Origin: Armatimonadota bacterium | GTDB lineage: Bacteria > Armatimonadota > DTGP01 > JAKQQT01 | Reading direction: 5' to 3' | DNA length: 64,000 bases | NCBI GenBank assembly: GCA_036504855.1 | Contig: DASXUL010000039.1 | Location: forward strand, 15,582 to 79,581 | Part shown: in pieces, positions 1,966-47,101 of the stretch | Position numbering within the stretch: the first letter of the stretch is position 1 | How the letters are laid out: the number at the start of each line of letters is the position of its first letter | Position numbers and translations under genes: made by a program | Notes under the pieces: model-generated | The model's database searches: none | Told to the model about the DNA's origin: nothing | Seen by the model: the letters and a program-made list of their open reading frames with translations, nothing else

Positions 1966-4900
1966 ATGATCCTTCCATTCCGCATCCCCCGTTGGGCCGC
2001 CCCGGCAGCGCTGGGCCTGGCCCTCGCGGCGCCGTCATGGGCCGCCATTTCCGTTACGGATGTGTCCATCAGTCCGGGGACCGGCGGCGACATCTTCCTA
2101 AAATATCGCCTCAATGAGGCGGCCTCCAGCGTGTCCATCAACCTGAGCGGCGGCTCGTCCGTCACCGGCGCCACGGCGAAGGGACTGAACACCGTCACCC
2201 TGACGCACGCGGTGGCTGGGCAGACGGCCACGATCACCGCGACGGCGCCGGCCGAAGCGGGCGGCGCGGCAGGCGCCGTTCTGGTTGTCCCGGTGACCAC
2301 TCCGGACAACCGGGCGACGCCCTCATCCACCAACCTCGTCGGCGTGGATGTGAACAAGCGCATCAACTCCGCCGGGAACGTTTACGGCGCCGCCCTGGGG
2401 CATATCTACCTCCCAACCGGGTTCAACCAGGCCGGACAGAAATACTGCTGGGTGTACGCCTCTGACGGCACGATGCTGTTCAACAAGAACCTGGGCGATG
2501 TGGCTACAAGCGGCTCGTGGCCGTACGGTATGGCCGTGGCCCAGGGCGATCCGAATGACCACGTTGTTATCCATAACCGCTCTCTTGCTAAGAACTGCGT
2601 TTTCAACGCGGACCTGAGCCTCACATTCGCCGCCCCGTACAACTACACGAACGGGGTGCCCGGCATGTGCATCACCCCGAACCCCTCGGATGCGACCCTG
2701 AAATTCAATATCTGGCAGGCGGGTCCCAAGGACAAGGGTGTCCGCCGCACGAAGGCCGATCTCGCAACCGCGGCCGGATTCGACTACAACACGACCACCT
2801 TCGCCATTGAGGCCGGCAACGATGGCGAGAACGTGCATGACATCGCCGTGGACCTGACGAACGCCGTGATGTTCAAGGCGCAGGTGACCGACGGCGGCGT
2901 CGGCGCCCTCAGCACCGGCGGCGTGAACAAGTGGACCTCGGCGGACGCCGGGGACAACTGGACCGAAGACACCACGTGGTTGACGGCCTTCCTCAATAAC
3001 GTAACGGCGGACCTTGCCGCCGCGGGCAGCGCGCTGACCACGGCAGACCTCGTCGGCGGCGGCGTGGGGTTGGCTCCCGGCTTCAACGCGGCGAACATGT
3101 CGAACTCCAGCGCATGGGTTGCGGTTTCCAGCAGCCTTGCCGTTCCGTTCTTCAACCGCATCTACCGCGTGAACGCGGCCACCGCCGCCATTGAACAGAC
3201 GATCGACGTGCAGCAGATCCCGACGCCGACCGGTGGTGTGGCCATTGCCGGCAAGTCCGTCCGCTTCGTAGAGGCGGATGCTGTCGGGAACCTCTGCATC
3301 GGCCTGAACGCCGCGGCGGCAATGACCGGTCAGTCTTCGCGTTACTTCGCCGTGTTGGGGCCCAACCAGACCGGCGCGAACAGCGCCAGCGTGGGCGGCA
3401 TCTTCATCTCCGCTCCTCCGCAGATCAGCGTCTCGGTGGACAAGAACGTCGTGGCAAACACCGGCGCGATCACGGTGAATTTCACGGCGCAGGTGACGGA
3501 CACCTCCGGCATCGTGGCGGACAACGCCCAGGTGACGGCGGACCTCTCCGCCATCAAGGGGCCGCCCTCGGCGACCCTCGTGCGCGGCGCCGTGTCGGCT
3601 GACGGCTTCTCGGCACCTTACACAGTCTCCTACCTCGTTCCGAAGGACGTGGACCTCTCCAACTCCGGTTCGTTCGACCTCCCGTTCACGTTGGCCACAA
3701 CCTCCACGCCGTCCACGGTGGCCCGCGTCACCGTGGCAGTCTACAGCGCTTATACTCCGGCGTGGTCGCTGACCACCGATGGCGCGGTGAACTCCTCGCC
3801 GGTAACCAACGGCGTGTACGCCTACTTCGGCGATGACGCCGGCAAGGTGTATGAAGTAAACACCGCAACCGGCGCCCTGGTGAGCGCGTTCGGCGCTGGC
3901 GGGGCGGTTACGCTGCCCGAGCCGGTGAAGGGCAAGCTGGCCTACGATGCCGGCAAGCTGTACGTGGCCACCTCGGGGCACGTCTACGTGCTGAACGGCG
4001 GAACCGGGTCCATCCTGGCCTCCCCGGCAGTTGCCGGCGTTTCGTCGCTGGCGGTTAGCCCGCTGATTCCGAATGCGGTGTTCGCGGCGGCCGGCAACAC
4101 GATTGTGAAGCTGAACGCCACAACGGGCGCGCAGCTTGCCGCCACGCCGGATCTCGGCGCGGCCGTGAACCGCGTTAGCCTCATCCCGAGCTCCGCCAAC
4201 GACGCCACGCAGGCCCCAGCGGTTGCCCTGGTTGTGACCGGCACGGAAGGTGACTCCACGGGCAAGAACGGCAAGATCGTGATTGCCTCGGCCGGCAACC
4301 TTGGCGCCGTGTTCAGCGACGCCAACAGCGTTCCCACCCTCACCCCGTTCACCGATGCCAACGGCCCGGTTCGCTCGCAGGCGACCTTCGGCAACGACGG
4401 CACGATCAACTTCTTCGCCATCGGCGGCGCCTCCGGCCTCTGGGCCGTGAACGCGGATGCCGGGACACTGCTGGAGTGGGTCGCCAACTCGGGCGGCGGC
4501 GCCAACAACGGCGGCAACCCCTACACTCCGGGCAGCCCGGTAGACGCCGATCCCGTTGTGCCCATCGTGGGCGACGGCTCGTTTGGGCGGGAGGACACCC
4601 GGTTCGCCTTCGCCACGGCGGGCAGCGCCTCGCAGGGCGGCCAGCTCAACGTCCTGACCAGCAGCGTCGGTGAGCGCGCCTCCTACGGCGGCTACCCGGT
4701 TCCGCTTACCCCGATCGGATCCGGTTTCGCGGCCGGCGCCGGGCTGTTCGCCGTCAACACGGCGGACGGACCTCGCGTCATTTACCTCGGCAGCGATGCC
4801 GTGGACAAGCGGTTCTTCGCGGTGGAAACCGAACCCGACGACATCTCATACAGCGCCACCGCCGACAAGAAGCATATCTTCGACCCGAAGGACACGCTCG

Positions 4901-5513: not shown

Positions 5514-5658
5514 TAGCTGTCAGCTATCAGCTATCAGCGATCAGCTATCAGCGATCAGCCGAACACCCCGCCCATGAGGAAACCATCCTCACGGGCGGGG
5601 TGTTCGGCTGAATGCTGAATGCTGAATGCTGAATGCTGAATGCTGATAGCTGACAGCT
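5514..5658. repeat. Intergenic palindromic element A. It has perfect 17-bp terminal inverted repeats, inner 7-bp tandem units (CAGCTAT/CAGCGAT on the left, GCTGAAT x4 on the right) and a central 15-bp-stem hairpin
   Basis: agctgtcagctatcagc (5514-5530) is the exact reverse complement of gctgatagctgacagct (5642-5658). The central stem ccgaacaccccgccc / gggcggggtgttcgg spans 5559-5607. The element lies between convergent genes, and the MFS stop codon (cta at 5657-5659) sits inside the right terminal repeat. Confidence 0.7.
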
Positions 5659-6868
5659 ATTCCCTCAGCGTTCCCAGGTTGCGGAGTTCGGGCCAGAGGC
5701 AGGCCACGGCGGCGACCACCAGGATGCTGCCCACGCCGCCCGCCACCACGGAGGCGACAGGGCCGAAGAGCTGGGCCACGGCGCCGCTCTCGAAGCCGCC
5801 GAGCTGGTTGCTGGCGCCGACGAAGAGGCTGTTTACCGCGCTCACCCGGCCGCGCAGATGGTCCGGCGTCCGTAACTGCACCAGTGACTGCCGCACGATG
5901 ACGCTGATGTTGTCCACGGCGCCCAGCAGGAAGAGCATCGACATCGAGAGCCAGAACGAACGCGAGAGGCCGAAAACCACGGTGACGACGCCAAACCCGG
6001 CCACGGCGAGGATCAGGGTGCGTCCTGCCCGGCGCATCGGAGGCCGGTGGGCCACCGAAACCGCCATCAGGGCCGCGCCCACGCTGGGGGCGGCCCGGAG
6101 CCAGCCCAACCCGCTGGGACCAACGTGCAGGATGTCTTTCGCGTAGATCGGCAGCAGGGTTGCGGCGCCCCCCAGCAGGACCGCGAACATATCCAGCGTT
6201 ATCGAGGCCAGAATGATGCGCGTCTGCAGAACGAAGCGCAAACCGGCCAGCAGCGTGCGCCAGTTCACTTCCTCGCGCTTTCGAGCGGCGGCCACGGTTC
6301 GAAGCGCCCACACGAAACCGAAGTGCCACAGCGCGAAGGCGGCGGCCACCCAGTAAACCGGCGCGGCCGCCTTCGCCACCCCGATGAGCAGCCCGCCGAG
6401 CGCCGGGCCCGCCACGCTGCCGATCTGGAAGATGCTGCTGTTCCAGGTGACGGCGTTGCTGAAATCGCGCTCCGGCACGAGTTGGGGCAGCAAGGAGGAC
6501 ACAGCCGGGTTACGGATGGCCCTCGACGTGGCGCCCACGAAGAGAAGGGCATAGTAGGCGGCCACAGGGCCGTGGGCGTGGGAGATCGCCGCCAGCGCCA
6601 GGGAGCAGAGCACGGCTATGGCCTGGGTGAACAGCACGATGCGACGGCGGTCGAACCGGTCCGCGGCATGTCCGGCCGGGAAGGTGAGAAGGAGGACCGG
6701 GAGGATTTCAACGAGTCCCACCAGGCCGAGGGCCATGGCGGAATGCGTTCGCTCGTAGAGCTCCCAACCCACGGCGACATCCTGCGCTTGCATCCCGATG
6801 ATGGAGAGGATATTGCCCGTGGCATAGCGCCGGAAATTCGCGTGGCGCAACGCTGAGTACGGGTCCAT
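5657..6868 (-). CDS. MFS transporter (enterobactin-exporter EntS-like family)
   Basis: A 403-aa polytopic membrane protein. The N-terminus LRHANFRRYATGNILSIIGMQAQDVAVGWELYERT and the overall pattern of 12 transmembrane segments are typical of the MFS superfamily. Confidence 0.85.
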   Translation of the reverse strand: MDPYSALRHANFRRYATGNILSIIGMQAQDVAVGWELYERTHSAMALGLVGLVEILPVLLLTFPAGHAADRFDRRRIVLFTQAIAVLCSLALAAISHAHGPVAAYYALLFVGATSRAIRNPAVSSLLPQLVPERDFSNAVTWNSSIFQIGSVAGPALGGLLIGVAKAAAPVYWVAAAFALWHFGFVWALRTVAAARKREEVNWRTLLAGLRFVLQTRIILASITLDMFAVLLGGAATLLPIYAKDILHVGPSGLGWLRAAPSVGAALMAVSVAHRPPMRRAGRTLILAVAGFGVVTVVFGLSRSFWLSMSMLFLLGAVDNISVIVRQSLVQLRTPDHLRGRVSAVNSLFVGASNQLGGFESGAVAQLFGPVASVVAGGVGSILVVAAVACLWPELRNLGTLRE

Positions 6869-6883
6869 AGGTGCAGTATGTCG

Positions 6884-7036
6884 TTATGAGTCATCAGTCG
6901 TCAGTCGTCAGTCGTCAGTCGTCAGTCCGGATGCCGTCTGCCGCCGAGAACGCCTCAATCACCGTTCTGGGCATTCGGGCTGATGACTGACGACTGACGA
7001 CTCATGACCGACGACTCATGACCGACGACTGATGGC
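6884..7036. repeat. Intergenic palindromic element B. It consists of a tandem GTCAGTC/GTCATCA 7-mer array, a unique core and an inverted CGACTGA/TGACGAC array
   Basis: gtcatcagtcgtcagtcgtcagtcgtcagtcgtcagtccgg ... gggctgatgactgacgactgacgactcatgaccgacgactcatgaccgacgactgatgg. The right arm extends over the last six codons and the TGA stop of the DUF309 gene (7016-7036). Confidence 0.7.
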
Positions 7037-10037: not shown

Positions 10038-10121
10038 TTTCGGTCTTTCCTCCTTTATGTGATCGGAGCCGGCAGCCGCCGCTTGCCGCCTGCCGCGTGG
10101 GGCGGCGCTGAGACGCGGGAA

Positions 10122-10250
10122 ACCACAGAGACATAAGGGCGCAAAGGGCGGATGAAAGGGATCGATTGGGGGGAATGCCGGGCCCAACACGATCCACCTC
10201 CCCATCTATACCCCTTTCATCCGCCCTTTGCGCCCTTGTTTCTCTGTGGT
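10122..10250. repeat. Long inverted repeat with about 39-bp arms (36/39 identical) separated by a 50-nt loop. It lies upstream of the S53 peptidase gene
   Basis: accacagagacataagggcgcaaagggcggatgaaaggg (10122-10160) matches the reverse complement of cccctttcatccgccctttgcgcccttgtttctctgtggt (10211-10250). The right arm overlaps the last codons of ORF 10217..10669. Confidence 0.6.
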
Positions 10251-10669
10251 TGCTCCGCCAGGCCTTCCAGCCACCGGCGGAAGGCGTAACGCGCCGCCGG
10301 GCGAGCCAGGGCGGCGAGGCCGGGGATGGGAAATCGGGTCCAAACCTGCAGGCGCGCTTCGCACCCGCCGGATGGCGTTGGCGTTAGCAGCAGACGGCCG
10401 CGCTGCGCTACGCCTAACGAGGCGCTTACCGAAAGCCAGACGACCGCGGAGGGGCTCCACGCCTTGACGAAAGTCATGCGCAGCCCTAGAGGCAGGAACA
10501 CGCGATAGCGCACCCATCCGTCACCGCGCGCCAGCACATCCACGCGGCGGACGAATGGGATGAGTTCCGGCTCCAACTCTACGCGCGAGACCAGAGCCGC
10601 CGCCAAGGCGGGCGGCGCCGGATTGCGGGCGCTCACGCACAGGATGAGGCATTTCGATCGGTCAGCCAT
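10217..10669 (-). CDS. Hypothetical protein (150 aa), possibly SRPBCC-like
   Basis: It is the only sizeable ORF between the peptidase gene and the divergent downstream gene, with no recognisable catalytic motif. Its 3' end is embedded in the arm of the long inverted repeat. Confidence 0.35.
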   Translation of the reverse strand: MADRSKCLILCVSARNPAPPALAAALVSRVELEPELIPFVRRVDVLARGDGWVRYRVFLPLGLRMTFVKAWSPSAVVWLSVSASLGVAQRGRLLLTPTPSGGCEARLQVWTRFPIPGLAALARPAARYAFRRWLEGLAEQPQRNKGAKGG

Positions 10670-10786: not shown

Positions 10787-11044
10787 ATGTTACGCATGAA
10801 CGCGGGCACGCGCCCATGCGGGGAGGGTTATCCGATGAAGCCCGCATTGTACGGCTGGAAGGACATGCTGCATGACTACACGCAGCTCCTTCTGAACGAC
10901 CGCTGGTATTGGTGCCGCCACTGCCGTCGTCCCGTTGAACACGTGCAGATCCCGCCTCCGGGCAGCCCCCCGGACGCGACCTCCCTAACGTGCCTCGATT
11001 GCGGCTACGCCGACCCGGAATTCCTGCACCTCCCTCGGATGTAA
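10787..11044 (+). CDS. Small zinc-ribbon protein (CxxC...CxxC), hypothetical
   Basis: An 85-aa ORF containing CRHCRRP ... CLDCGY. A start at the internal MKPALYGW is also possible. Confidence 0.4.
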   Translation: MLRMNAGTRPCGEGYPMKPALYGWKDMLHDYTQLLLNDRWYWCRHCRRPVEHVQIPPPGSPPDATSLTCLDCGYADPEFLHLPRM

Positions 11045-11163
11045 GCTGTCAGCCGTCAGCTGTCAGCCGTCAGCCCAGAGGGTCCGCCTGTGCAGACGCC
11101 GCGCTCTCTTGGGTCAGCCTTCCGGCTGATGACTGATGACTGAAGGCTGACGACTGACTACTG
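11045..11163. repeat. Intergenic palindromic element C, a compound of 7-mer arrays (GCTGTCA/GCCGTCA) plus a D/E-like unit
   Basis: gctgtcagccgtcagctgtcagccgtcagcc ... ggtcagccttccggctgatgactgatgactgaaggctgacgactgactac, located immediately after the stop codon of the preceding gene. Confidence 0.65.
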
Positions 11164-11237: not shown

Positions 11238-11335
11238 GCGGGCAGGGCAAGCCCAGCCCCTACCAGGTCGGGGTCTCCATCCACCCATCGGTGGACGGCC
11301 GGGCCTACCGGGTCGGGGCTGGGCTTGCCCTGCCC
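11238..11335 (-). terminator. Large GC-rich hairpin (perfect 21-bp stem, 54-nt loop with an inner palindrome) downstream of the pilin operon
   Basis: gggcagggcaagcccagcccc (11240-11260) pairs with ggggctgggcttgccctgccc (11315-11335), and the loop contains tccacccatcggtgga. It lies 59 nt beyond the 3' end of the PilX-like gene. Confidence 0.5.
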
Positions 11336-19913: not shown

Positions 19914-19923
19914 CCACACTCAC

Positions 19924-19988
19924 CACAAAGGCACAAAGGCGCGAAGACCGGATCTTGTTTCGGTCTTCGCGCCTTTGCGCCTTTGTGG
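19924..19988. terminator. Bidirectional terminator hairpin between convergent genes
   Basis: cacaaaggcgcgaagaccg / gatcttgtt / cggtcttcgcgcctttgtg form a perfect stem of at least 17 bp. Confidence 0.65.
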
Positions 19989-20001
19989 TAAGTTCGCCGA
20001 G

Positions 20002-25683: not shown

Positions 25684-25830
25684 ATCACGCTCCTTTGGCG
25701 GGCCAAGGTAAGGGCGGGGCCATTCCGCTCAACACGCCGACATGGAGCGCGGCGGCTTGCCCCCGCTTTCGCTCGGTCCACCCCCGCCCAAAGCGGCGGC
25801 AAGCCGCCGCATTCCATATCGGTTGCCGCG

Positions 25831-27880: not shown

Positions 27881-29008
27881 TCATAATCCTAGGATTTCGC
27901 GCCCCAACAGCGCCCAGCGGGTGATATCCGGGTCCGCGTTGAAGCCGGGTTCACCGGCGAGAACGGCGCGCTGGTGGGCGGCCAGAACGCATGCGCCTTC
28001 CTCGAAGATCCCGCGGATCGGATCGGGCAGCGGCTCGCGGCCGATGCAGGCTGGGCGCAGCGGGATCATCTCCCGCGTGTTGTGCTCGGTTCCGCCAGTT
28101 ACGATGAAGCCCGCATCTCGCAAGGCGGGAACGTACTCCTCCAGCACGAGGCGGCGGTTGCGCACTGGGATGAACTCCACGGCCCCGATATCCCAACGAT
28201 GGAGCCGCTCAGTCAACCCTTCAACCGGCGCCTCGAACGGGCAGATGGGGCTGGCGCCGTCCGCCAGCACCGGGTAGCACGGGATGCCCCTCATCGCCAG
28301 GACCAGCGCGCGGGCCTCCTCGAAGGAGACGAACCGTTCCTCCACGAAGGCCGGCCGCCCGGCCTTCATCAGATGCGTGCGGATGTCGTTTTGCACCGCC
28401 GCCGCGTCGTCTGGCGCCTTCGGCTCTGCTCCAAGAATCGCGTGCAGCGCTCCGGCCCGGGCGCCAGGCTCGGTAGAGGCGAACAGCGCTTCCTGAAACG
28501 CCTGCGCCACGTGGCGCTCCTGAAGGGTAACCGTATCGCGCGGGCAGCCGTGCCGGGTCACGACGCCGTCAACAATTGCCCCGTCGGTCAGGCCGGTGGG
28601 GAATCCCGCCGTCGTGAACACGGACTCCATGCGCGACACCATCGCGGAGATGCGGCGCGCGTCGCCCTCGCGGATGCCATTCAGCACGCGCGCCGGCTCC
28701 GGCTCGAAAGCGGCGGCGGGGGCGATTCCCTTCCCGCAGACGTAGACCTTGCCGGGGTTGCCGGGGTCGTTCAGCTTCACGCCATCGGCCGCCAGCCGCT
28801 CATCCCGCGCCACGATCTCCATCCCGAACAGCGGGAAGATGCCGGCGCGTTCGGCCCGTTCTGCAAATTCCGCGTAAACGGAGTAATCGTAGTAGTTGCT
28901 GGCCCCGAGCGCGCGGATGCCCTGTTCGGCCGCCAGGCGTACCGCCTGTTCCACGGAATCGAACGCCGAAAAGTTCGGCGGAAGGTGAATGTGGCTGTTT
29001 GAAGTCAT
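27881..29008 (-). CDS. PHP-domain (polymerase/histidinol-phosphatase-like) metal-dependent phosphoesterase
   Basis: The N-terminus SHIHLPPNFSAFDS matches the HxH...D PHP motif. The start codon lies inside the first unit of repeat D and has no Shine-Dalgarno sequence. Confidence 0.6.
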   Translation of the reverse strand: MTSNSHIHLPPNFSAFDSVEQAVRLAAEQGIRALGASNYYDYSVYAEFAERAERAGIFPLFGMEIVARDERLAADGVKLNDPGNPGKVYVCGKGIAPAAAFEPEPARVLNGIREGDARRISAMVSRMESVFTTAGFPTGLTDGAIVDGVVTRHGCPRDTVTLQERHVAQAFQEALFASTEPGARAGALHAILGAEPKAPDDAAAVQNDIRTHLMKAGRPAFVEERFVSFEEARALVLAMRGIPCYPVLADGASPICPFEAPVEGLTERLHRWDIGAVEFIPVRNRRLVLEEYVPALRDAGFIVTGGTEHNTREMIPLRPACIGREPLPDPIRGIFEEGACVLAAHQRAVLAGEPGFNADPDITRWALLGREILGL

Positions 29009-29073
29009 CAGTAATCAGTCGTCAGTCGTCAGTTGTCAGTTCGGACTCAGAACTGATGACTGACGACTGACAA
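29004..29073. repeat. Intra-operon palindromic element D of the 7-mer family (GTCATCA/GTCGTCA ... TGACGAC/TGATGAC)
   Basis: gtcatcagtaatcagtcgtcagtcgtcagttgtcagttcggactcagaactgatgactgacgactgacaac fills the entire 65-bp gap between the E2 stop and the PHP start. Confidence 0.65.
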
Positions 29074-30276
29074 CTACTTCTCCAGCATTTCCTTGAGTCG
29101 GGCCATGAAGCGGGCGGCGAGGAGGCCGTCGATGAGGCGGTGGTCGGCGGAGAGGGTGAGCGTCATCCGATGGCCGGCGCGGATGGCGCCGTCCTTCACG
29201 ACGATGTCCTCGCGAACGGCGCCCACGGCCAGGATGGCGGCTTCCGGCGGGTTGATGATCGCCGAGAACTCCTCAACGCCGAACATGCCGAGGTTGGTGA
29301 TGGTGAACGTGGCCTCGCCGGCGCCCTCCAGCCTGCCGGCGCGGGCGGCCTCCACAATGCGGCGCGTTTCGGCGGCGATGCCCTTCAGGTTTCGGCTGTC
29401 CGCGCCCCTCAGAACCGGCACGGTGAGCCCCTCATCCGTTCCCACGGCGATGCCGATATTCGCCTCGCGGAACGTGACGACGTCATCGCCGTCCACGCGG
29501 CCCCGGAACGCGGGGAACTCGGTAAGGAGGCGGGCACAGGCGTATGTGATGACGTCGTTCAGGCTGCACGGATACACCGCCTTCTCGGCGCGGTAGAACG
29601 CCATCAGCGGCCCCGCGTCGACGGTGAGCTTCACGTAGAAGTGCGGGATGGTCTGCTTGGACGCAACGAGGCCGCGGGCGATGGCCTTCCGCATACGGGT
29701 CATGGGAACGCGCTCGGCCCCCGGCTCCGGCGGTCGCGGGGATCGCGGCTCCGGCTCCGGCTCCGCCGCGGCCTCGTGGACCGCTGCTTCAACATCGGCC
29801 AGCAAGATCCGGCCGCGCGGGCCCGAGCCATGGGCGATGCTCTCCAGGGAAACGCCGCACTGGGCCGCGGCCTTCCGGGCCAGCGGCGAGGCGGCCACGC
29901 GCCCGGACCGCGCGGGTTCCACGGCCGGAGTCCGTTCCCGCGCCGGCGCCTCTCCGGCTACGTTCGGCGCAACGGCCTGCGGCGCTCCGGCGAGGAACGC
30001 GTCCGCCTCGGCGTCCGTCTCGGCCAGAACGCCAACCAGCGATTTCACCGGCAGCGTGACGCCGTCCTTCGCCACGATGCGGGCGAGGCGTCCGGAATCG
30101 GCCGCTTCCACCTCCAGCACGGCCTTGTCCGTTTCCACCTCGAAGAGGATGTCGCCCTTGCGGACCTGGTCCCCCTCGCGGGCCAGCCATCGGACGATGG
30201 TCCCCTCCTCCATGGATTGCCCCGGCTGGGGCATCAGTATCGCCACGGCGCCGCGCGTCTCGGACGGTTGGTTCAT
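29074..30276 (-). CDS. Dihydrolipoamide acyltransferase (E2 component of a 2-oxo acid dehydrogenase complex)
   Basis: A lipoyl domain (EVETDKAVLEVEA), an Ala/Pro-rich linker, an E3-binding domain, and a catalytic domain with DHRLIDG. The start was chosen at MNQPS (30276). The upstream ATG at 30333 would place a palindromic operator-like site in the coding sequence. Confidence 0.8.
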   Translation of the reverse strand: MNQPSETRGAVAILMPQPGQSMEEGTIVRWLAREGDQVRKGDILFEVETDKAVLEVEAADSGRLARIVAKDGVTLPVKSLVGVLAETDAEADAFLAGAPQAVAPNVAGEAPARERTPAVEPARSGRVAASPLARKAAAQCGVSLESIAHGSGPRGRILLADVEAAVHEAAAEPEPEPRSPRPPEPGAERVPMTRMRKAIARGLVASKQTIPHFYVKLTVDAGPLMAFYRAEKAVYPCSLNDVITYACARLLTEFPAFRGRVDGDDVVTFREANIGIAVGTDEGLTVPVLRGADSRNLKGIAAETRRIVEAARAGRLEGAGEATFTITNLGMFGVEEFSAIINPPEAAILAVGAVREDIVVKDGAIRAGHRMTLTLSADHRLIDGLLAARFMARLKEMLEK

Positions 30277-30308: not shown

Positions 30309-30341
30309 GCACATTATAGACAAACTCTTGCAAGAATGTGC
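30309..30341. promoter_or_regulatory. Candidate operator: a perfect 10-bp palindrome TCTTGCAAGA nested in a 7-bp inverted repeat GCACATT...AATGTGC, in the divergent E2/DeoR control region
   Basis: gcacattatagacaaactcttgcaagaatgtgc. It lies about 30 to 65 nt upstream of the E2 start and about 80 nt upstream of the DeoR-family regulator start. Confidence 0.35.
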
Positions 30342-30347
30342 AGAGAA

Positions 30348-30418
30348 GTCATCAGTTGTCAGTCATCAGTTCTCAGTCCGGACTGACGACTGATGACTGA
30401 TGACTGATGACTGACGAC
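30348..30418. repeat. Palindromic element E of the 7-mer family, centred on cagtccggactg
   Basis: gtcatcagttgtcagtcatcagttctcagtcc | ggactgacgactgatgactgatgactgatgactgacgac. It ends 4 nt before the DeoR ATG. Confidence 0.7.
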
Positions 30419-30422
30419 TCCC

Positions 30423-31208
30423 ATGAGCCTGACCTCCGAACAACGACAGGAAGAGATACTTACGCGCGTGCTGGGTGTGGGGCACGTTGTGGTGAAGGCG
30501 TTGGCCGTGGACATGGGGGTTTCGGAGGCGACGGTGCGGCGCGACCTGCGGGCGCTGGCCGACGCGCGCAAGGTGGAACTGGTGTACGGCGGCGCCACGA
30601 TGCCGCGAACCGCGGACTTCACCGTGCTGGGGCGCGCGCGGCGCAATGTGGAGGCCAAGCGCATTGTGGGACGGCTGGCCGCCGGCCTGGTTCCCGACGG
30701 CGAGATGATGTACGTGGATTCCGGGACCACATGCTTCGAGATGCGCCGCCACCTGATGCAGAAGCGCGGCCTCTCCATCTTGCTGAACTCCACCCGCCTC
30801 GCCATGGAACTGAACGCCGGATCGGACGCCAGCATCGTGCTCCTCGGCGGGCACTACCGGCCTGAGCGCATGGATACCGTGGGCCCGCTGGCGGTGGCGG
30901 CCATCGACCAACTGCGCGGCTACGTGGCCTTCATCGGCGCCGACGGGCTCGACCCGGATTTCGGGGTGACCGCCGACGATATCCAGACCGCGTTCCTCTA
31001 TCAGCACGTGTTAAGGAACGCGCGCGAGACCATTCTGCTGGCGGACCATACCAAATTCCTCTGCCCATCGCTGTATCGCATCTGCACGTGGGACGCCATC
31101 TCCCGCGTGGTCACCGATGTGCGCCCCGACGACGAGTGGGTGGAGTTTCTCAACAAGAACGGCATCGAGCTGATACACGAGATGAACACGGAAGCGCCCG
31201 GCTGCTAG
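30423..31208 (+). CDS. DeoR/GlpR-family transcriptional regulator
   Basis: An N-terminal HTH ([34 protein letters not shown]) and a C-terminal DeoR sugar-phosphate-binding domain. Confidence 0.85.
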
Positions 31209-33724: not shown

Positions 33725-34173
33725 AGAGGGATCGGGGCCGGCGGAGCGAATCGGGGTCCGGATTCCGGATTCCGGATTCGCGACCATGAGCGGGTGGAGG
33801 ATGTTGGTTGGGAGGAAAGGCCGGGCCCCGAGGGGCCGGCTCGGCGGACCAACGGCGCCTTCGCGCTGTGATGCCGCCGTCCACTCACGTCACCCCGAGC
33901 GAAGCGAGAGGTCTCGGCCTGACGCGTCTTTCCTGGCAACGTTTCAAGCACCCGAGCCGGCGTTTGCCTGGGTGCTTGCTCCGCAGCGCCAAACTGCAGG
34001 CCAGGCCGAGACCTCTCGCTTCGCTCGAGGTGACGTGGAGAGACGCGAGGGCGCGAAGGGCCCTTGGCCTTCCGAGCCGGCCCCTCGGGGCCAGGCTCTA
34101 CCCGCCAACTACTAGCATCCTCGCGCATCCGGTCGCGAATCCGGACTCCGGAATCCGGATCCCGATCCCCTTC
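33725..34173. repeat. Three-layer nested palindromic composite (about 449 bp) that fills the gap between convergent genes
   Basis: Outer inverted repeat: gggatcggg...tccggattccggattccggattcgcgacc (33728-33787) against ggtcgcgaatccggactccggaatccggatcccgatcccc (34126-34170). Middle inverted repeat: gccccgaggggccggctcgg (33828-33847) against ccgagccggcccctcggggc (34072-34091). Inner 153-bp element: 33886-34038. Confidence 0.7.
33886..34038. mobile_element. MITE-like 153-bp palindromic element (copy 1) with 36-bp terminal inverted repeats and a central hairpin
   Basis: Terminal repeats cacgtcaccccgagcgaagcgagaggtctcggcctg / caggccgagacctctcgcttcgctcgaggtgacgtgg. The central stem is agcacccgagcc...tgggtgct. 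It is homologous to 44973..45125. Confidence 0.6.
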
Positions 34174-44649: not shown

Positions 44650-44934
44650 TCATATCTCCGTGGCCAAGTCCCGCCATGTTGGGTTCGAGGACTCGATCAG
44701 TGCGATCTTCTTGTCCCGGGACCACGCCTTGATCTGTTTCTCCCGCTCGATGGCGGCGGAGATGCTGTCGTACTCCTCATGGTACGCCAGTCGCGTGACA
44801 TTGTACCTGGCGGTGAAGCCGGGTGTGGCCTTTGCCTTGTGTTCGCAGACGCGCCGCTGGAGGTCATTCGTCACGCCGACATACAGGGTTCGCGACACGC
44901 TCGCCATGATGTAGACCGAAAACGGCCCCTTCAT
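44650..44934 (-). CDS. GIY-YIG nuclease superfamily small protein (UPF0213-like)
   Basis: It contains FSVYIMASVSRTLYVGVTNDLQRRVCEHK, which has the GIY...YIG-type motif and the conserved Arg and Glu. The protein is 94 aa. Confidence 0.8.
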   Translation of the reverse strand: MKGPFSVYIMASVSRTLYVGVTNDLQRRVCEHKAKATPGFTARYNVTRLAYHEEYDSISAAIEREKQIKAWSRDKKIALIESSNPTWRDLATEI

Positions 44935-44972
44935 GAACCACCCTCCACCACCAAGAACCTAACCTCTCGCCC

Positions 44973-45125
44973 CACGTCACGTCGAGCGCAGCGAGAGGTC
45001 TCGGCCTGACGGTTCTACGAGAGATGCGTCACAAGCACCCGGGCAAAGGTCTGCATGGGTGCTCCTTACCACGCATCAAGCAAACGGCCAGGCCGAGACC
45101 TCTCGCTGCGCTCGAGGTGACGTGG
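44973..45125. mobile_element. MITE-like 153-bp palindromic element (copy 2), 39 bp upstream of the GIY-YIG gene start
   Basis: Terminal repeats cacgtcacgtcgagcgcagcgagaggtctcggcctg / caggccgagacctctcgctgcgctcgaggtgacgtgg. The central stem is agcacccgggc...atgggtgct. It is the same length as copy 1 and has the same terminal repeats. Confidence 0.65.
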
Positions 45126-45155
45126 GAGGCCACGCTTCCACCATTTCAGCAGCCT

Positions 45156-45683
45156 CTACGCCGCCTCGTCTCGGCGATCGACCTCCGCATCATACGTTCC
45201 AAGCCACGATCGGGAGCGCCACAGGATGCCGGAGCACCCGGTCTGCGGCTGTCCCAGCGGGGCCGGTTCCGTGAACGCGCCGTCTATGGGCACGCCGTTC
45301 CGCCAGTCGGAGACCACTCGGATCCGCTCCTCCACGATGTCGCGTACCAGTTTGATCGCTTCGGCGATTACGAAGTCTGAAACGGGTTCCTCGCAGCCGT
45401 CCGGGCGCCACCACTCGTCGATGTGATTGTGCGTTCCGCCGAACTCCACGGTGATCTCGACGTTCTCGTCGTCGCCCAGGGTGGAAAGCACGAGGCCCTC
45501 TTCGTCATCGGAGTGGCCTGGACGGGGGATCTTCATCAGCAGCGTACCGGCCTCCGCGGGGTTCACCCGCGGGTAGATGGAGCCGATTGTCGCGTAGCGC
45601 GCCCAGTCCGGGAAATCGCCCAGCAGTGTTTCCAGAAAGCGCTGCGCGAATGGGTTGAGTCCGTTCAAGGTGTCGTCGGTCAT
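45156..45683 (-). CDS. Hypothetical cytoplasmic protein (about 175 aa), translationally coupled to rarA
   Basis: An ORF starting at the internal Met MTDDTLNGLNPF. The stop of rarA overlaps this gene's longest-form start (ATGA at 45737-45740). There are no recognisable motifs. Confidence 0.45.
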   Translation of the reverse strand: MTDDTLNGLNPFAQRFLETLLGDFPDWARYATIGSIYPRVNPAEAGTLLMKIPRPGHSDDEEGLVLSTLGDDENVEITVEFGGTHNHIDEWWRPDGCEEPVSDFVIAEAIKLVRDIVEERIRVVSDWRNGVPIDGAFTEPAPLGQPQTGCSGILWRSRSWLGTYDAEVDRRDEAA

Positions 45684-45736
45684 GTCGATGGTCCTCTGCC
45701 TGTGATCTGTTGATACGTTTCGCAATCGCCGCGCAT

Positions 45737-47101
45737 TCAAGCCGGTGGGCCATCGGAATCTGTGGCGCCGCCCCTCTGCTCCAGTTCCGCCCTGATCTCG
45801 TCCATACGCTTCTTCACGCGGGCTTCGAAGCCGCGATCGCCTGGGGTATAGTACGGTTCCCCTGTGGGCAGACCCGGCGGGAGGTAGCGCTGTTCCACGA
45901 TTCCCCCCTCGAAGCTGTGCGGATACTGATATCCGGCGCCGTGGCCCAGCGCCTTCGCCCCCTTGTACGACGCGTCACGCAGGTGGGAGGGCACGGGCTG
46001 GACGCGCTCCGACTTGAGGTCCTCCAGCACCTTCGCGATGGTGGTGACCACGCTGTTGCTCTTCGGAGCGCAAGCGATATAGAGCGCGGCCTCCATCATT
46101 GGGATGCGGGCCTCGGGCAGCCCCACCATCTCCAGCGCATGCGCGGCGGAGGCGGCAACAACCAGCGCCTGAGGATCGGCCATCCCCACGTCTTCAGCCG
46201 CGTGGATCAGAATCCGGCGCATGAGGAACCGCGGGTCCTCGCCCGATTCGAGCATGCGCAGGAACCAATAGGCGGTGGCGTCCGGATCCGAGCCCCGCAT
46301 GCTCTTGATGAACGCGGAGATGGCGTCGTAATGGGCGTCGCCGCTCTTGTCTGAGGGCAGCATCCGGCGCTGGAGCGCCTCTTCCATGTCCGAGAGCGTC
46401 ACCGTTCGCCGTCCGTCCGAGCCAGGCTCCACGGCGTCGGCCACAGCCTCGAGGGCTGAGAGGGCGATCCGGGCATCCCCGTTGGCAAGGTTCACCATGT
46501 GTTCCATCGCGGCCGGTTCCATCACGATGCGCATCTCGCCGAGGCCGCGCTCCTCGTCCGCAATGGCGCGTTCCACTAGCGAACGGATGGCGTCGTCGTC
46601 GAGCGAGTTGAACCGCACGAGGCGGGCTCGCGACAGCAGGGGCGGGTTCACCTCGAAGAACGGGTTCTCGGTGGTGGCGCCGATCAGGGTGATCGTGCCA
46701 TCCTCCACGTGCGGCAGCAGGGCATCCTGCTGCGCCTTGTTGAAGCGGTGGATCTCGTCCACGAAGACGATGGTTTTCACGCCGCGGAAGCGGCGTTCCT
46801 TGGCGCGCGCGATGATGAGGCGCAAGTCGGGCACCCCGCCCGTGACCGCGGAGAACGGCTCGAAGGCGTTGCGCGTGACGTTGGCCACAACGGCGGCGAG
46901 AGTGCTCTTGCCCGTGCCGGGCGGGCCCCAGAGGATGAGGCTGTGCAGGCGGTCCGACTCGATGGCGCGGCGCAGCCAACGGCCGGGCCCCAGCACGTCT
47001 TCCTGTCCCACGAACTCGTCCAGCGAGCGGGGGCGGAGGCGCGCGGCCAGAGGCGCGTCAGTTTCACGGGCGAACAGAGATCGGTCCGATTGGGTTTCCA
47101 T
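45737..47101 (-). CDS. rarA: Replication-associated recombination protein A (AAA+ ATPase RarA/MgsA)
   Basis: Walker A GPPGTGKST, Walker B VFVDEIHRFNK, the sensor/arginine finger, and the MgsA C-terminal helical domain. Confidence 0.9.
   Translation of the reverse strand: METQSDRSLFARETDAPLAARLRPRSLDEFVGQEDVLGPGRWLRRAIESDRLHSLILWGPPGTGKSTLAAVVANVTRNAFEPFSAVTGGVPDLRLIIARAKERRFRGVKTIVFVDEIHRFNKAQQDALLPHVEDGTITLIGATTENPFFEVNPPLLSRARLVRFNSLDDDAIRSLVERAIADEERGLGEMRIVMEPAAMEHMVNLANGDARIALSALEAVADAVEPGSDGRRTVTLSDMEEALQRRMLPSDKSGDAHYDAISAFIKSMRGSDPDATAYWFLRMLESGEDPRFLMRRILIHAAEDVGMADPQALVVAASAAHALEMVGLPEARIPMMEAALYIACAPKSNSVVTTIAKVLEDLKSERVQPVPSHLRDASYKGAKALGHGAGYQYPHSFEGGIVEQRYLPPGLPTGEPYYTPGDRGFEARVKKRMDEIRAELEQRGGATDSDGPPA

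What the first reader, a model, noticed from the sequence alone, without database searches (positions are those of the whole stretch)
44973..45125. A second copy of the 153-bp MITE-like element sits in the promoter region of a GIY-YIG nuclease gene
The second copy has the same 153-bp length and near-identical 36-bp terminal inverted repeats (CACGTCAC[C/G]TCGAGCG[A/C]AGCGAGAGGTCTCGGCCTG) as the element at 33886..34038. The internal sequence has diverged but preserves the central stem (AGCACCCG...GGGTGCT) by compensatory changes. Conserved ends with a structurally conserved but sequence-divergent core are the hallmark of a mobilisable or structurally selected element. This copy lies 39 bp upstream of a GIY-YIG endonuclease-family gene, and such small GIY-YIG proteins are frequent partners of repeat elements. 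Whether the association is functional is open.
Basis: partly seen in the sequence, partly recalled or inferred. Interest (0 to 1): 0.6.

Follow-up and report, generated by a model that had tools for sequence, protein, structure and literature searches.

The report
Hairpin-repeat pair beside its Ssn nuclease gene
The 153-bp element is an inverted pair of tagged DNA hairpins of the kind recently shown in Neisseria to be bound and cut, as single-stranded DNA, by a small GIY-YIG nuclease (Ssn); the neighbouring gene is such a nuclease, so this is a real but already described system, seen here in an Armatimonadota genome.

Summary
Two 153-bp elements (33886-34038, 44973-45125) share near-identical 36-44-nt terminal inverted repeats. 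Copy B lies 38 nt upstream of a 94-aa GIY-YIG gene.

One detail is wrong. The central stem is identical in both copies, so it is not compensatory. The only compensatory change is A-T to C-G inside the arms.

Each arm is a tagged hairpin: CGTC, a 9-bp stem with tandem G·A mismatches, a GNA triloop, then C. The element is therefore a head-to-head dimer of CGTC-tagged REP-type hairpins.

The GIY-YIG protein is 48% identical (E 5e-20) to the Neisseria ssnA product. In 58 of 80 homologous loci from more than 12 phyla, the same hairpin type lies within 150 nt of the gene.

This is the published Ssn/SRM system (Chenal et al. 2025, PMC11893778): a site-specific ssDNA nuclease plus its hairpin repeats. 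What is new is modest. It is an Armatimonadota member, the arms escape the published SRM search pattern, and copy A sits exactly at the apex of a 449-nt palindrome.

Mobility is plausible but unproven. There is no target-site duplication, and only two copies occur in about 74 kb. A relative lacks both the gene and the hairpins.

The parts
44973..45125 (.). Copy B: head-to-head dimer (tags outward) of two Ssn-related-motif hairpins with a 92-nt spacer; the inverted repeat extends to 44971-45126
   Evidence: (I7).
44975..45002 (+). Copy B left arm: CGTC tag, ACGTCGAGC / GCA / GCGAGAGGT hairpin (one outer-stem mismatch), CTC tail
   Evidence: Covariance model R1, 35.0 bits, E 3e-7.
45095..45122 (-). 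Copy B right arm: CGTC tag, ACCTCGAGC / GCA / GCGAGAGGT hairpin, CTC tail. This arm is nearest the gene, with its tag facing the gene
   Evidence: R1, 39.3 bits, E 2e-8; strict hairpin definition.
45034..45063 (.). Central stem of the spacer (AGCACCCG ... GGGTGCT), identical in copy A
44650..44934 (-). ssn-family gene: 94-aa single-domain GIY-YIG nuclease, 38 nt from copy B and 33 nt upstream of mnmA
   Evidence: Pfam PF01541. 48% identity to the N. gonorrhoeae ssnA-locus product, E 5e-20 and 5e-30. 4542 homologues.
33886..34038 (.). Copy A: solo head-to-head dimer, 11 kb from the ssn gene, between convergent E1 dehydrogenase and GNAT genes
   Evidence: (I14).
33888..33915 (+). Copy A left arm
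   Evidence: R1, 36.4 bits.
34008..34035 (-). Copy A right arm
   Evidence: R1, 39.0 bits.
33725..34173 (.). Outer imperfect palindrome with GGATTCC heptamer repeats, filling the whole convergent intergenic region; copy A sits exactly at its apex
   Evidence: I1. In the fold with the element removed, the innermost enclosing pair is 33882/34040.

Best explanation
The element is a head-to-head pair of Ssn-related motifs (SRM), which are CGTC-tagged REP-type hairpins. The adjacent gene encodes their cognate Ssn-family GIY-YIG nuclease.

Each arm reads CGTC | ACCTCGAGC | GNA | GCGAGAGGT | CTC. That is a three-base tag (GTC) just 5' of a 9-bp stem, two tandem G·A mismatches in the stem, a GCGNAGC mini-hairpin at the tip, and a C directly after the palindrome.

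The mechanism is inferred by analogy with N. meningitidis SsnA and its NTS repeat. When this DNA is single-stranded (incoming transforming or conjugative DNA, replication or recombination intermediates), an arm folds. Ssn binds it in the tag-5' orientation only and cuts a few nucleotides 5' of the tag.

In a dimer with tags outward, each strand carries one cleavable arm. The predicted cuts fall at the two outer edges of the element: near 44970-44973 on the top strand and near 45125-45128 on the bottom strand. The expected consequence is restriction or shortening of ssDNA that carries these repeats, and so modulation of recombination.

The repeats next to the gene mark the gene's own locus, as in most family members.

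Shown here: the sequence architecture, the protein homology, and the gene-hairpin association across phyla.
Inferred: the enzymatic activity and the biological role in this organism.
For: 1. Anatomy. Four arms score 35-39 bits against a hairpin model built mainly from hairpins that flank homologous genes in other phyla. Nothing else in the 64 kb exceeds 10 bits.
2. Protein. It is 94 aa with a single GIY-YIG domain. It is 48% identical to the product of the N. gonorrhoeae ssnA locus, E 5e-20 by tblastn and 5e-30 by blastp. That locus carries 11 NTS copies, arranged as 109-bp dimers with tags outward. The Tyr/Tyr/Glu residues mutated in the paper are conserved.
3. Association. Of 80 homologous loci from more than 12 phyla, 58 have a strictly defined tagged hairpin within 150 nt of the gene. 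33 have one upstream in the tag-first orientation, 43 have one downstream in the reverse orientation, and 26 have both. Density falls to about 1 hit per 100-nt bin over all 80 loci beyond 500 nt.
4. Structure is selected. When hairpins are chosen without requiring complementarity, the outer stem pairs in 91% of cells, against 71% for shuffled partners (maximum 77%). Inner pair 12-18 is GC in 33 sequences and AU in 19. With sites anchored only on the loop motif, the GTC tag and the trailing C are still enriched, at 0.66-0.80.
5. Closest relatives keep the module. L178 (Ssn 81% identical) has a homologous 177-bp dimer 35 nt upstream of the gene, next to an unrelated neighbour gene. L179 (Ssn 79%, MnmA 79%) has hairpin-ssn-hairpin-mnmA.
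6. Literature. SsnA cuts ssDNA only, near its NTS. It needs the 3 nt upstream of the palindrome for cutting and the C after it for binding. 71% of homologue genes are flanked by SRMs (PMC11893778).
Against: - The published degenerate SRM pattern does not match any of the four arms. It hits near the gene in only 3 of my 80 loci. My implementation does find the Neisseria NTS copies. So these arms are a variant class whose cleavage by its own Ssn is untested.
- The left arms have a mismatch in their own outer stem (ACCCC or ACGTC against GAGGT). The selected structure here could therefore be the long arm-to-arm duplex rather than each small hairpin.
- The layout is less common: the whole dimer is upstream and there is no hairpin downstream of the stop codon.
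- Only two dimers are seen in about 74 kb.
- Nothing is known about competence or Ssn function in Armatimonadota.
- I compared against the N. gonorrhoeae locus, not the characterised N. meningitidis protein itself.
Confidence: 0.8

Rival explanations
1. The dimer is a REPIN- or MITE-like non-autonomous mobile element that Ssn or another enzyme copies to new sites. The gene-linked copy would be the end of the autonomous unit, and copy A a dispersed derivative. This reading is compatible with the main explanation; it adds mobility.
For: - Copies A and B share length and spacer homology, so the whole unit was duplicated.
- Copy A sits exactly at the apex of a larger palindrome whose loop would be about 30 nt without it. 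Other heptamer palindromes in the window have loops of 0-54 nt.
- A related genome in the same sample has mgsA, then 83 nt, then mnmA, with no ssn and no hairpin in 21 kb.
- The dimer plus ssn module occurs next to an unrelated gene in L178.
- Hairpins of this type occur far from any ssn gene in 86 metagenome loci.
- The Ssn authors note that NTS-ssnA-NTS looks like an insertion sequence.
Against: - There is no target-site duplication.
- No strain-level presence/absence of a dimer was seen; the only other assembly of this strain is identical where it overlaps.
- No close copy of the 153-bp unit appeared in the metagenome scan.
- Ssn cuts only the tag-5' strand of an arm, so it makes one cut per strand. 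No strand-transfer activity is known.
- The relative that lacks the module is only 76% identical in MnmA, so loss cannot be told from gain.
Confidence: 0.25
2. The element acts at the RNA level, as a very stable transcript hairpin that terminates, insulates or stabilises mRNAs, or as a small RNA. On this reading its position next to the GIY-YIG gene is incidental.
For: - The predicted fold is extremely stable.
- Both copies are intergenic. Copy A is between convergent genes, and copy B lies within a same-strand gene string mgsA-hyp-ssn-mnmA.
Against: - No Rfam family reaches threshold; the only hits are generic microRNA-precursor hairpins far below gathering score.
- No U-tract terminator or promoter consensus is present.
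- The most conserved parts include the unpaired, orientation-giving tag at both outer ends. That fits recognition of either DNA strand rather than one transcript.
- The hairpin-gene linkage across more than 12 phyla is far too strong to be incidental.
- SsnA does not bind RNA.
Confidence: 0.1
3. The element is an assembly artefact or a chance palindrome.
For: Palindromes can be created or collapsed by assemblers. The independent Logan contig stops inside the arm at window 45000 and, if colinear, near 34009, so the cores are seen in one assembly only.
Against: - The arms are confirmed in the independent assembly.
- A homologous dimer occurs in a different sample, next to an 81%-identical gene.
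- The chance expectation for the arm sequence is 0.
Confidence: 0.02

Closest known systems
Ssn nuclease / NTS-SRM hairpin repeat system (Chenal et al., Nat Commun 2025, PMC11893778)
   Same: - A 94-aa single-domain GIY-YIG protein, homologous at 48% identity to the Neisseria locus product.
- The gene lies beside oriented hairpin repeats with an HGTC tag 5' of the palindrome and a C just after it.
- Repeats form dimers with tags outward at the Neisseria ssnA locus too (109 bp).
- Repeats also occur away from the gene.
   Different: - The arms do not fit the published degenerate SRM pattern. They have tandem G·A mismatches and a GNA triloop instead of a fully paired CCCGCG stem.
- The dimer is longer (153 bp), with arm complementarity extended by CTCGGCCTG beyond the hairpin.
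- The host phylum, Armatimonadota, is not mentioned in the paper.
- Activity and role are untested here.
CGTC-tagged REPs and their HH dimers (Di Nocera et al., BMC Genomics 2013, PMC3733652)
   Same: - CGTC tag at one end, 9-bp stem and a 3-nt tail.
- Predominant organisation as HH dimers (tags outside) with conserved spacers of 20-100 bp.
- Intergenic location.
- The Neisseria dRS3 repeats belong to both descriptions.
   Different: - That survey reports loops of 4-5 nt and A-T pairs at the first two stem positions, with a CCA tail. Here the loop is 3 nt, the second pair is C-G and the tail is CTC.
- The survey found no dedicated enzyme. Here, and in the Ssn paper, a GIY-YIG gene is linked.
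REPIN / RAYT (REP doublets with a domesticated HUH tyrosine transposase)
   Same: - Two inverted tagged hairpins plus a spacer act as the repeated unit.
- A single small nuclease gene is itself flanked by the repeats.
- No target-site duplication.
- Stems differ between genomes.
   Different: The tag is CGTC, not GTAG. The enzyme fold is GIY-YIG, not HUH. No transposition chemistry has been demonstrated for Ssn.
Classical bacterial MITEs
   Same: Small size, terminal inverted repeats, intergenic location, strong fold-back potential.
   Different: There is no target-site duplication and no related IS with a DDE transposase. The ends are self-folding tagged hairpins.

Membership tests
Ssn nuclease family (cd10448) | Single-domain GIY-YIG protein of about 94 aa with no extra DNA-binding domain | tested here: met
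   94 aa; Pfam PF01541 covers residues 6-76 and no other domain is found.
Ssn nuclease family (cd10448) | Homology to Neisseria SsnA (the paper's criterion is E < 1e-10) | tested here: met
   tblastn to the single N. gonorrhoeae locus gives 48% identity, E 5e-20; blastp gives 5e-30. That locus is flanked by 11 NTS copies. The comparison is to the gonococcal orthologue, not the N. meningitidis protein.
Ssn nuclease family (cd10448) | Catalytic Tyr, Tyr and Glu (Y6, Y17, E64 in N. meningitidis) conserved | tested here: met
   Y8, Y18 and E65 align with the Neisseria residues and are invariant in 32 homologues.
Ssn nuclease family (cd10448) | CDD assignment to cd10448, or placement in the Ssn clade of a GIY-YIG phylogeny | not testable with these tools
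   No CDD library is available. The only PDB relative is UPF0213 BH0048 at E 0.004; NCBIfam gives no family above cut-off.
Ssn nuclease family (cd10448) | Cuts ssDNA only, next to its hairpin, in one orientation | not testable with these tools
   This needs purified protein and oligonucleotide assays.
SRM / NTS hairpin repeats | Oriented hairpin with a conserved GTC just 5' of the palindrome and a C just 3' of it | tested here: met
   All four arms read CGTC-A...T-C. The same positions are enriched at 0.66-0.80 when sites are anchored only on the loop motif.
SRM / NTS hairpin repeats | Located beside the ssn gene | tested here: met
   Copy B is 38 nt from the start codon. 58 of 80 homologous loci have such a hairpin within 150 nt.
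SRM / NTS hairpin repeats | Match to the published search pattern HGTCWYN(0-2)YYVSBRHN(0-5)WNVSBRGN(0-2)RNCYNB | tested here: not met
   None of the four arms matches. Only 3 of 80 loci have a hit near the gene. The same regex finds 8 NTS copies in the Neisseria locus.
SRM / NTS hairpin repeats | Many dispersed copies in genomes that carry ssn | tested here: inconclusive
   Only four arms occur in about 74 kb of this genome. The rest of the genome could not be searched.
CGTC-tagged REPs (Di Nocera 2013) | CGTC/TGTC tag, 8-9-bp stem, short unpaired tail | tested here: met
   CGTC tag, 9-position stem with two G·A mismatches, CTC tail.
CGTC-tagged REPs (Di Nocera 2013) | Loop of 4-5 nt and A-T pairs at stem positions 1 and 2 | tested here: not met
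   The loop is a 3-nt GNA. The first pair is A-T and the second is C-G (definitions).
CGTC-tagged REPs (Di Nocera 2013) | HH dimers (tags outside) with conserved spacers of 20-100 bp | tested here: met
   Tags face outward. The spacer between hairpin bodies is 92 nt and about 76% identical between copies (definitions).
MITE | Target-site duplication flanking the terminal inverted repeats | tested here: not met
   Flanks are CCACT / GAGAG at copy A and TCGCCC / GGAGGC at copy B; there is no direct repeat.
MITE | Presence/absence polymorphism or many copies | tested here: inconclusive
   Two copies are seen here and one homologous dimer elsewhere. The locus is empty in a relative with 76% MnmA identity. 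No same-species comparison was possible.
REPIN / RAYT | GTAG tag | tested here: not met
   The tag is CGTC.
REPIN / RAYT | HUH tyrosine transposase (RAYT) gene flanked by the repeats | not tested
   The linked gene is a GIY-YIG nuclease. I did not search the window for an HUH transposase.

The most novel reading that the evidence does not exclude
SRM head-to-head dimers may be REPIN-like replicators. On this reading Ssn is a GIY-YIG counterpart of RAYT, which would make it the 'missing' enzyme for CGTC-tagged REPs. Insertion would be aimed at single-stranded loops at the apex of hairpins or cruciforms, as copy A's position at the exact centre of a 449-nt palindrome suggests.
Probability: 0.2. 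Interest if true: 0.65.

Novelty: new member of a known kind. Interest (0 to 1): 0.35.

Why it matters
The finding places an unannotated repeat and a 'GIY-YIG nuclease family protein' from an uncultured Armatimonadota genome into a system with a known biochemical activity: site-specific ssDNA cutting guided by a hairpin.

It also shows that the published motif used to find such repeats misses a hairpin class, YGTC-A-YYCY-GAGCGNAGCGA-RGRR-T-C. This class flanks Ssn genes in at least a dozen phyla, so the published counts of Ssn-repeat pairs are probably underestimates. Each Ssn-hairpin pair is also a potential new ssDNA-cutting specificity.

Whether these repeats are mobile is still unanswered. 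Copy A at the apex of a palindrome and the empty locus in a relative are usable leads.

Tried and rejected
- Rfam at gathering threshold over the window found nothing. At permissive E-values only generic microRNA-precursor hairpins appeared, far below threshold.
- A viral-contig scan for the arm found no hits.
- A metagenome scan with GAGCGNAGCGAGAGGTCTC returned 86 loci. None is a close copy of the 153-bp unit and none has a GIY-YIG ORF. So the association cannot be seen from the repeat side with short contigs. The source contig is not in that collection.
- Four literature searches on GIY-YIG plus REP, MITE or sequence strings found nothing. A fifth, on COG2827, UPF0213 and YhbQ, returned only incidental mentions. 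A sixth found the Ssn paper.
- I at first read the CGTC REP paper's 'no dedicated transposase' as leaving room for novelty. The Ssn paper removes most of that.
- The invariance of tag and tail in alignment A3 is circular, because my selection required them. I replaced it with the loop-anchored test.
- Outer-stem covariation in A3 is also partly by construction. I replaced it with an anchored test that requires no complementarity.
- The look-up of the 1201-aa window protein to extend the contig found no record. The extra 9.6 kb obtained from the JGI contig has no further arms.
- Copy B's flanks were checked for an outer palindrome like copy A's; none was found (I7).

Full report
**Observation**

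Their arms are near-identical. A 25-mer from the arm occurs four times in the window, against none in 100 shuffles. Arm complementarity is 36 nt at 97% in copy A and 44 nt at 93% in copy B. The core is about 76% identical between copies. Both copies fold far more stably than shuffled sequence, with z = -12.3 and -9.9.

A 94-aa ORF on the minus strand (44650-44934) is a GIY-YIG domain protein. Its ATG is 38 nt from copy B.

The central stem AGCACCCG/GGGTGCT is identical in both copies, so there is no compensation there. The only two-sided change lies in the arms, where A-T in copy A becomes C-G in copy B. There is no target-site duplication. No promoter or terminator consensus lies at either element.

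**Anatomy**

Each arm is more than half of a long inverted repeat, because it can fold on its own. It reads CGTC, then ACCTCGAGC, a GNA triloop, GCGAGAGGT, then CTC. This is a tag followed by a 9-position stem with two tandem G·A mismatches around a GCGNAGC mini-hairpin. The tags point outward, so in the nomenclature of Di Nocera et al. (2013) the element is an HH dimer of CGTC-tagged REPs with a 92-nt spacer.

A covariance model of the 28-nt hairpin finds exactly these four arms in the window, at 35-39 bits. Nothing else exceeds 10 bits. A further 9.6 kb of the same genome has none.

**Source**

The sequence is from an uncultured Armatimonadota bacterium. NCBI names the protein as a GIY-YIG nuclease family protein from an Armatimonadota MAG. 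The same DNA is on JGI metagenome contig Ga0376481_000516 and on a Logan contig that stops inside the arm of copy B.

**The gene-hairpin link, tested from both sides**

From the repeat side I saw nothing. A metagenome scan for the arm motif gave 86 loci with related tagged hairpins but no GIY-YIG ORF in 410 kb.

From the gene side the link is very strong. I took 80 loci encoding homologues (51-66% identical) from more than 12 phyla. The sequence just after the stop codon is almost always GA(G/T)AYYCTTCGCTNCGCTCAGRATGAC(A/G). This is the reverse complement of YGTCATYCTGAGCGNAGCGAAGRATC.

I then applied a strict definition: tag, a perfect 5-bp outer stem, and a trailing C. The results were as follows:

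| Measure | Loci (of 80) |
|---|---|
| Hairpin within 150 nt of the gene | 58 |
| Upstream, tag-first orientation | 33 |
| Downstream, reverse orientation | 43 |
| Both of the above | 26 |

Beyond 500 nt, density drops to about one hit per 100-nt bin over all 80 loci. The covariance model gives the same picture.

Stems differ between genomes (ATTCT, ATCCT, ACCCT, ATTGC; ACCTC here), while the tip is conserved. I checked pairing in hairpins selected without requiring complementarity. The outer stem is paired in 91% of cells, against 71% with shuffled partners. An inner pair alternates between G-C and A-T. When sites are anchored only on the loop motif, the GTC tag and the trailing C remain enriched.

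**Literature**

This association is published. Chenal et al. (Nat Commun 2025, PMC11893778) describe the Ssn family, CDD family cd10448. Their main findings are:

- SsnA of N. meningitidis is a 94-aa single-domain GIY-YIG protein.
- It binds the hairpin repeat NTS (CGTCATTCCCGCGMAVGCGGGAATCYRG) only as ssDNA and only in one orientation, and cuts a few nucleotides upstream.
- The three bases 5' of the palindrome matter for cutting, and the C after it matters for binding.
- 71% of homologue genes are flanked by Ssn-related motifs (SRM), and 42% are flanked on both sides.
- SsnA lowers transformation by NTS-bearing DNA.
- The authors note that NTS-ssnA-NTS resembles an insertion sequence, and they draw the REP/RAYT analogy.

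**Membership**

The window protein is 48% identical to the product of the single N. gonorrhoeae ssnA locus. The E-values are 5e-20 by tblastn and 5e-30 by blastp, and the catalytic Tyr, Tyr and Glu are conserved. That record is a gonococcal chromosome filed among plasmids.

The Neisseria locus carries 11 NTS copies. They are arranged as 109-bp dimers with tags outward, on both sides of the gene. This is the same architecture as the 153-bp element.

One defining feature is not met. The published degenerate SRM pattern matches none of the four arms, and it hits near the gene in only 3 of my 80 loci. My implementation does recover the Neisseria NTS copies. The G·A mismatches break the pattern. 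The window's arms therefore belong to a variant SRM class that the published search would miss.

**Relatives and mobility**

- L178 has an Ssn 81% identical to the window's. It carries a homologous 177-bp dimer 35 nt upstream of the gene, beside an unrelated neighbour gene. The dimer and gene therefore travel together.
- L179 (Ssn 79%, MnmA 79%) has hairpin-ssn-hairpin directly upstream of mnmA, as in the window, but with ATTCC/GGAAT stems.
- L176 is a relative from the same metagenome (MnmA 76%). It has mgsA, then 83 nt, then mnmA. It has no ssn gene and no hairpin in 21 kb.

Copy A lies 11 kb from the gene and sits at the exact apex of a 449-nt palindrome that fills a convergent intergenic region. 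With the element removed, the innermost pair enclosing the junction is 33882/34040.

These facts fit duplication and insertion of the dimer as a unit. They do not prove it. There is no target-site duplication, no same-species polymorphism was available, and Ssn is known only to make one cut per strand.

**Verdict**

The system is already described, so this is a new member of a known kind. It is an Armatimonadota Ssn locus with a variant hairpin, organised as long head-to-head dimers. Its activity and role here are inferred by homology.

Noticed in passing
window 5515-5660, 6883-7022, 11044-11162, 29001-29089, 30338-30433: Intergenic palindromes built from tandem heptamers (AGTCGTC / GACTGAC, AGCTATC and similar), with arms of 33-86 nt and loops of 0-54 nt. 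They are a separate repeat class of this genome. GGATTCC heptamers also form the outer palindrome around copy A.
   Followed up: partly
window 10121-10251, 19918-19993, 11240-11335, 25737-25822: Other long near-perfect inverted repeats (33-46-nt arms at 80-95% complementarity), unrelated in sequence to the SRM arms.
   Followed up: no
window 45156-45740 (- strand): A 175-194-aa ORF with no Pfam or NCBIfam match lies between mgsA and copy B. It is absent from the related genome L176, where mgsA and mnmA are 83 nt apart, so it may have arrived with the ssn module.
   Followed up: partly
L171:3001-3282 and L171:5803-6084: Two ssn copies (85% identical over 266 nt of the ORF) lie in inverted orientation on either side of an hsdS gene, inside a type I restriction-modification locus that also holds an AAA_15/DUF4276 pair. 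Each copy has its own tagged hairpins.
   Followed up: partly
L169-L175, about 3270-3400: Directly after the ssn stop codon there is a tandem array of a 34-nt unit. The unit consists of the last codons of ssn plus the 5' half of the hairpin. Copy number differs between otherwise identical strains, from about 2 to 5 or more, and several assemblies break there.
   Followed up: partly
L180:1486-1773 (N. gonorrhoeae NZ_CP119142.1): The gonococcal ssnA homologue has no in-frame ATG, GTG or TTG at its N-terminus and is not listed as an ORF of 80 aa or more, so it may be a pseudogene in this strain. The 2.17-Mb record is a chromosome filed as a plasmid.
   Followed up: no
L038, L044, L058, L067, L069, L075, L081 and similar (soil metagenomes): A composite repeat carries the same loop motif (GACTCGAGCGGAGCGAGAGGTCTC) but no YGTC tag. 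It is followed by a second GC-rich hairpin and flanked by (CCAAGAA)n or (ACGCAGAG)n heptamer or octamer runs, and is sometimes in tandem with a 92-99-nt period.
   Followed up: no
L019/L051, P0019, P0051, L105, L109, L162: Many ssn ORFs read through into the downstream hairpin, giving C-terminal tails such as DSSLRSE or DPSLRSG. The hairpin overlaps the stop codon, which leaves no room for a separate terminator.
   Followed up: no
window versus JGI contig Ga0376481_000516: The coordinate offsets show that the window extends about 8 kb beyond one end of the 66.1-kb JGI contig. The window probably comes from the 89.5-kb NCBI MAG contig, not from the JGI record.
   Followed up: partly
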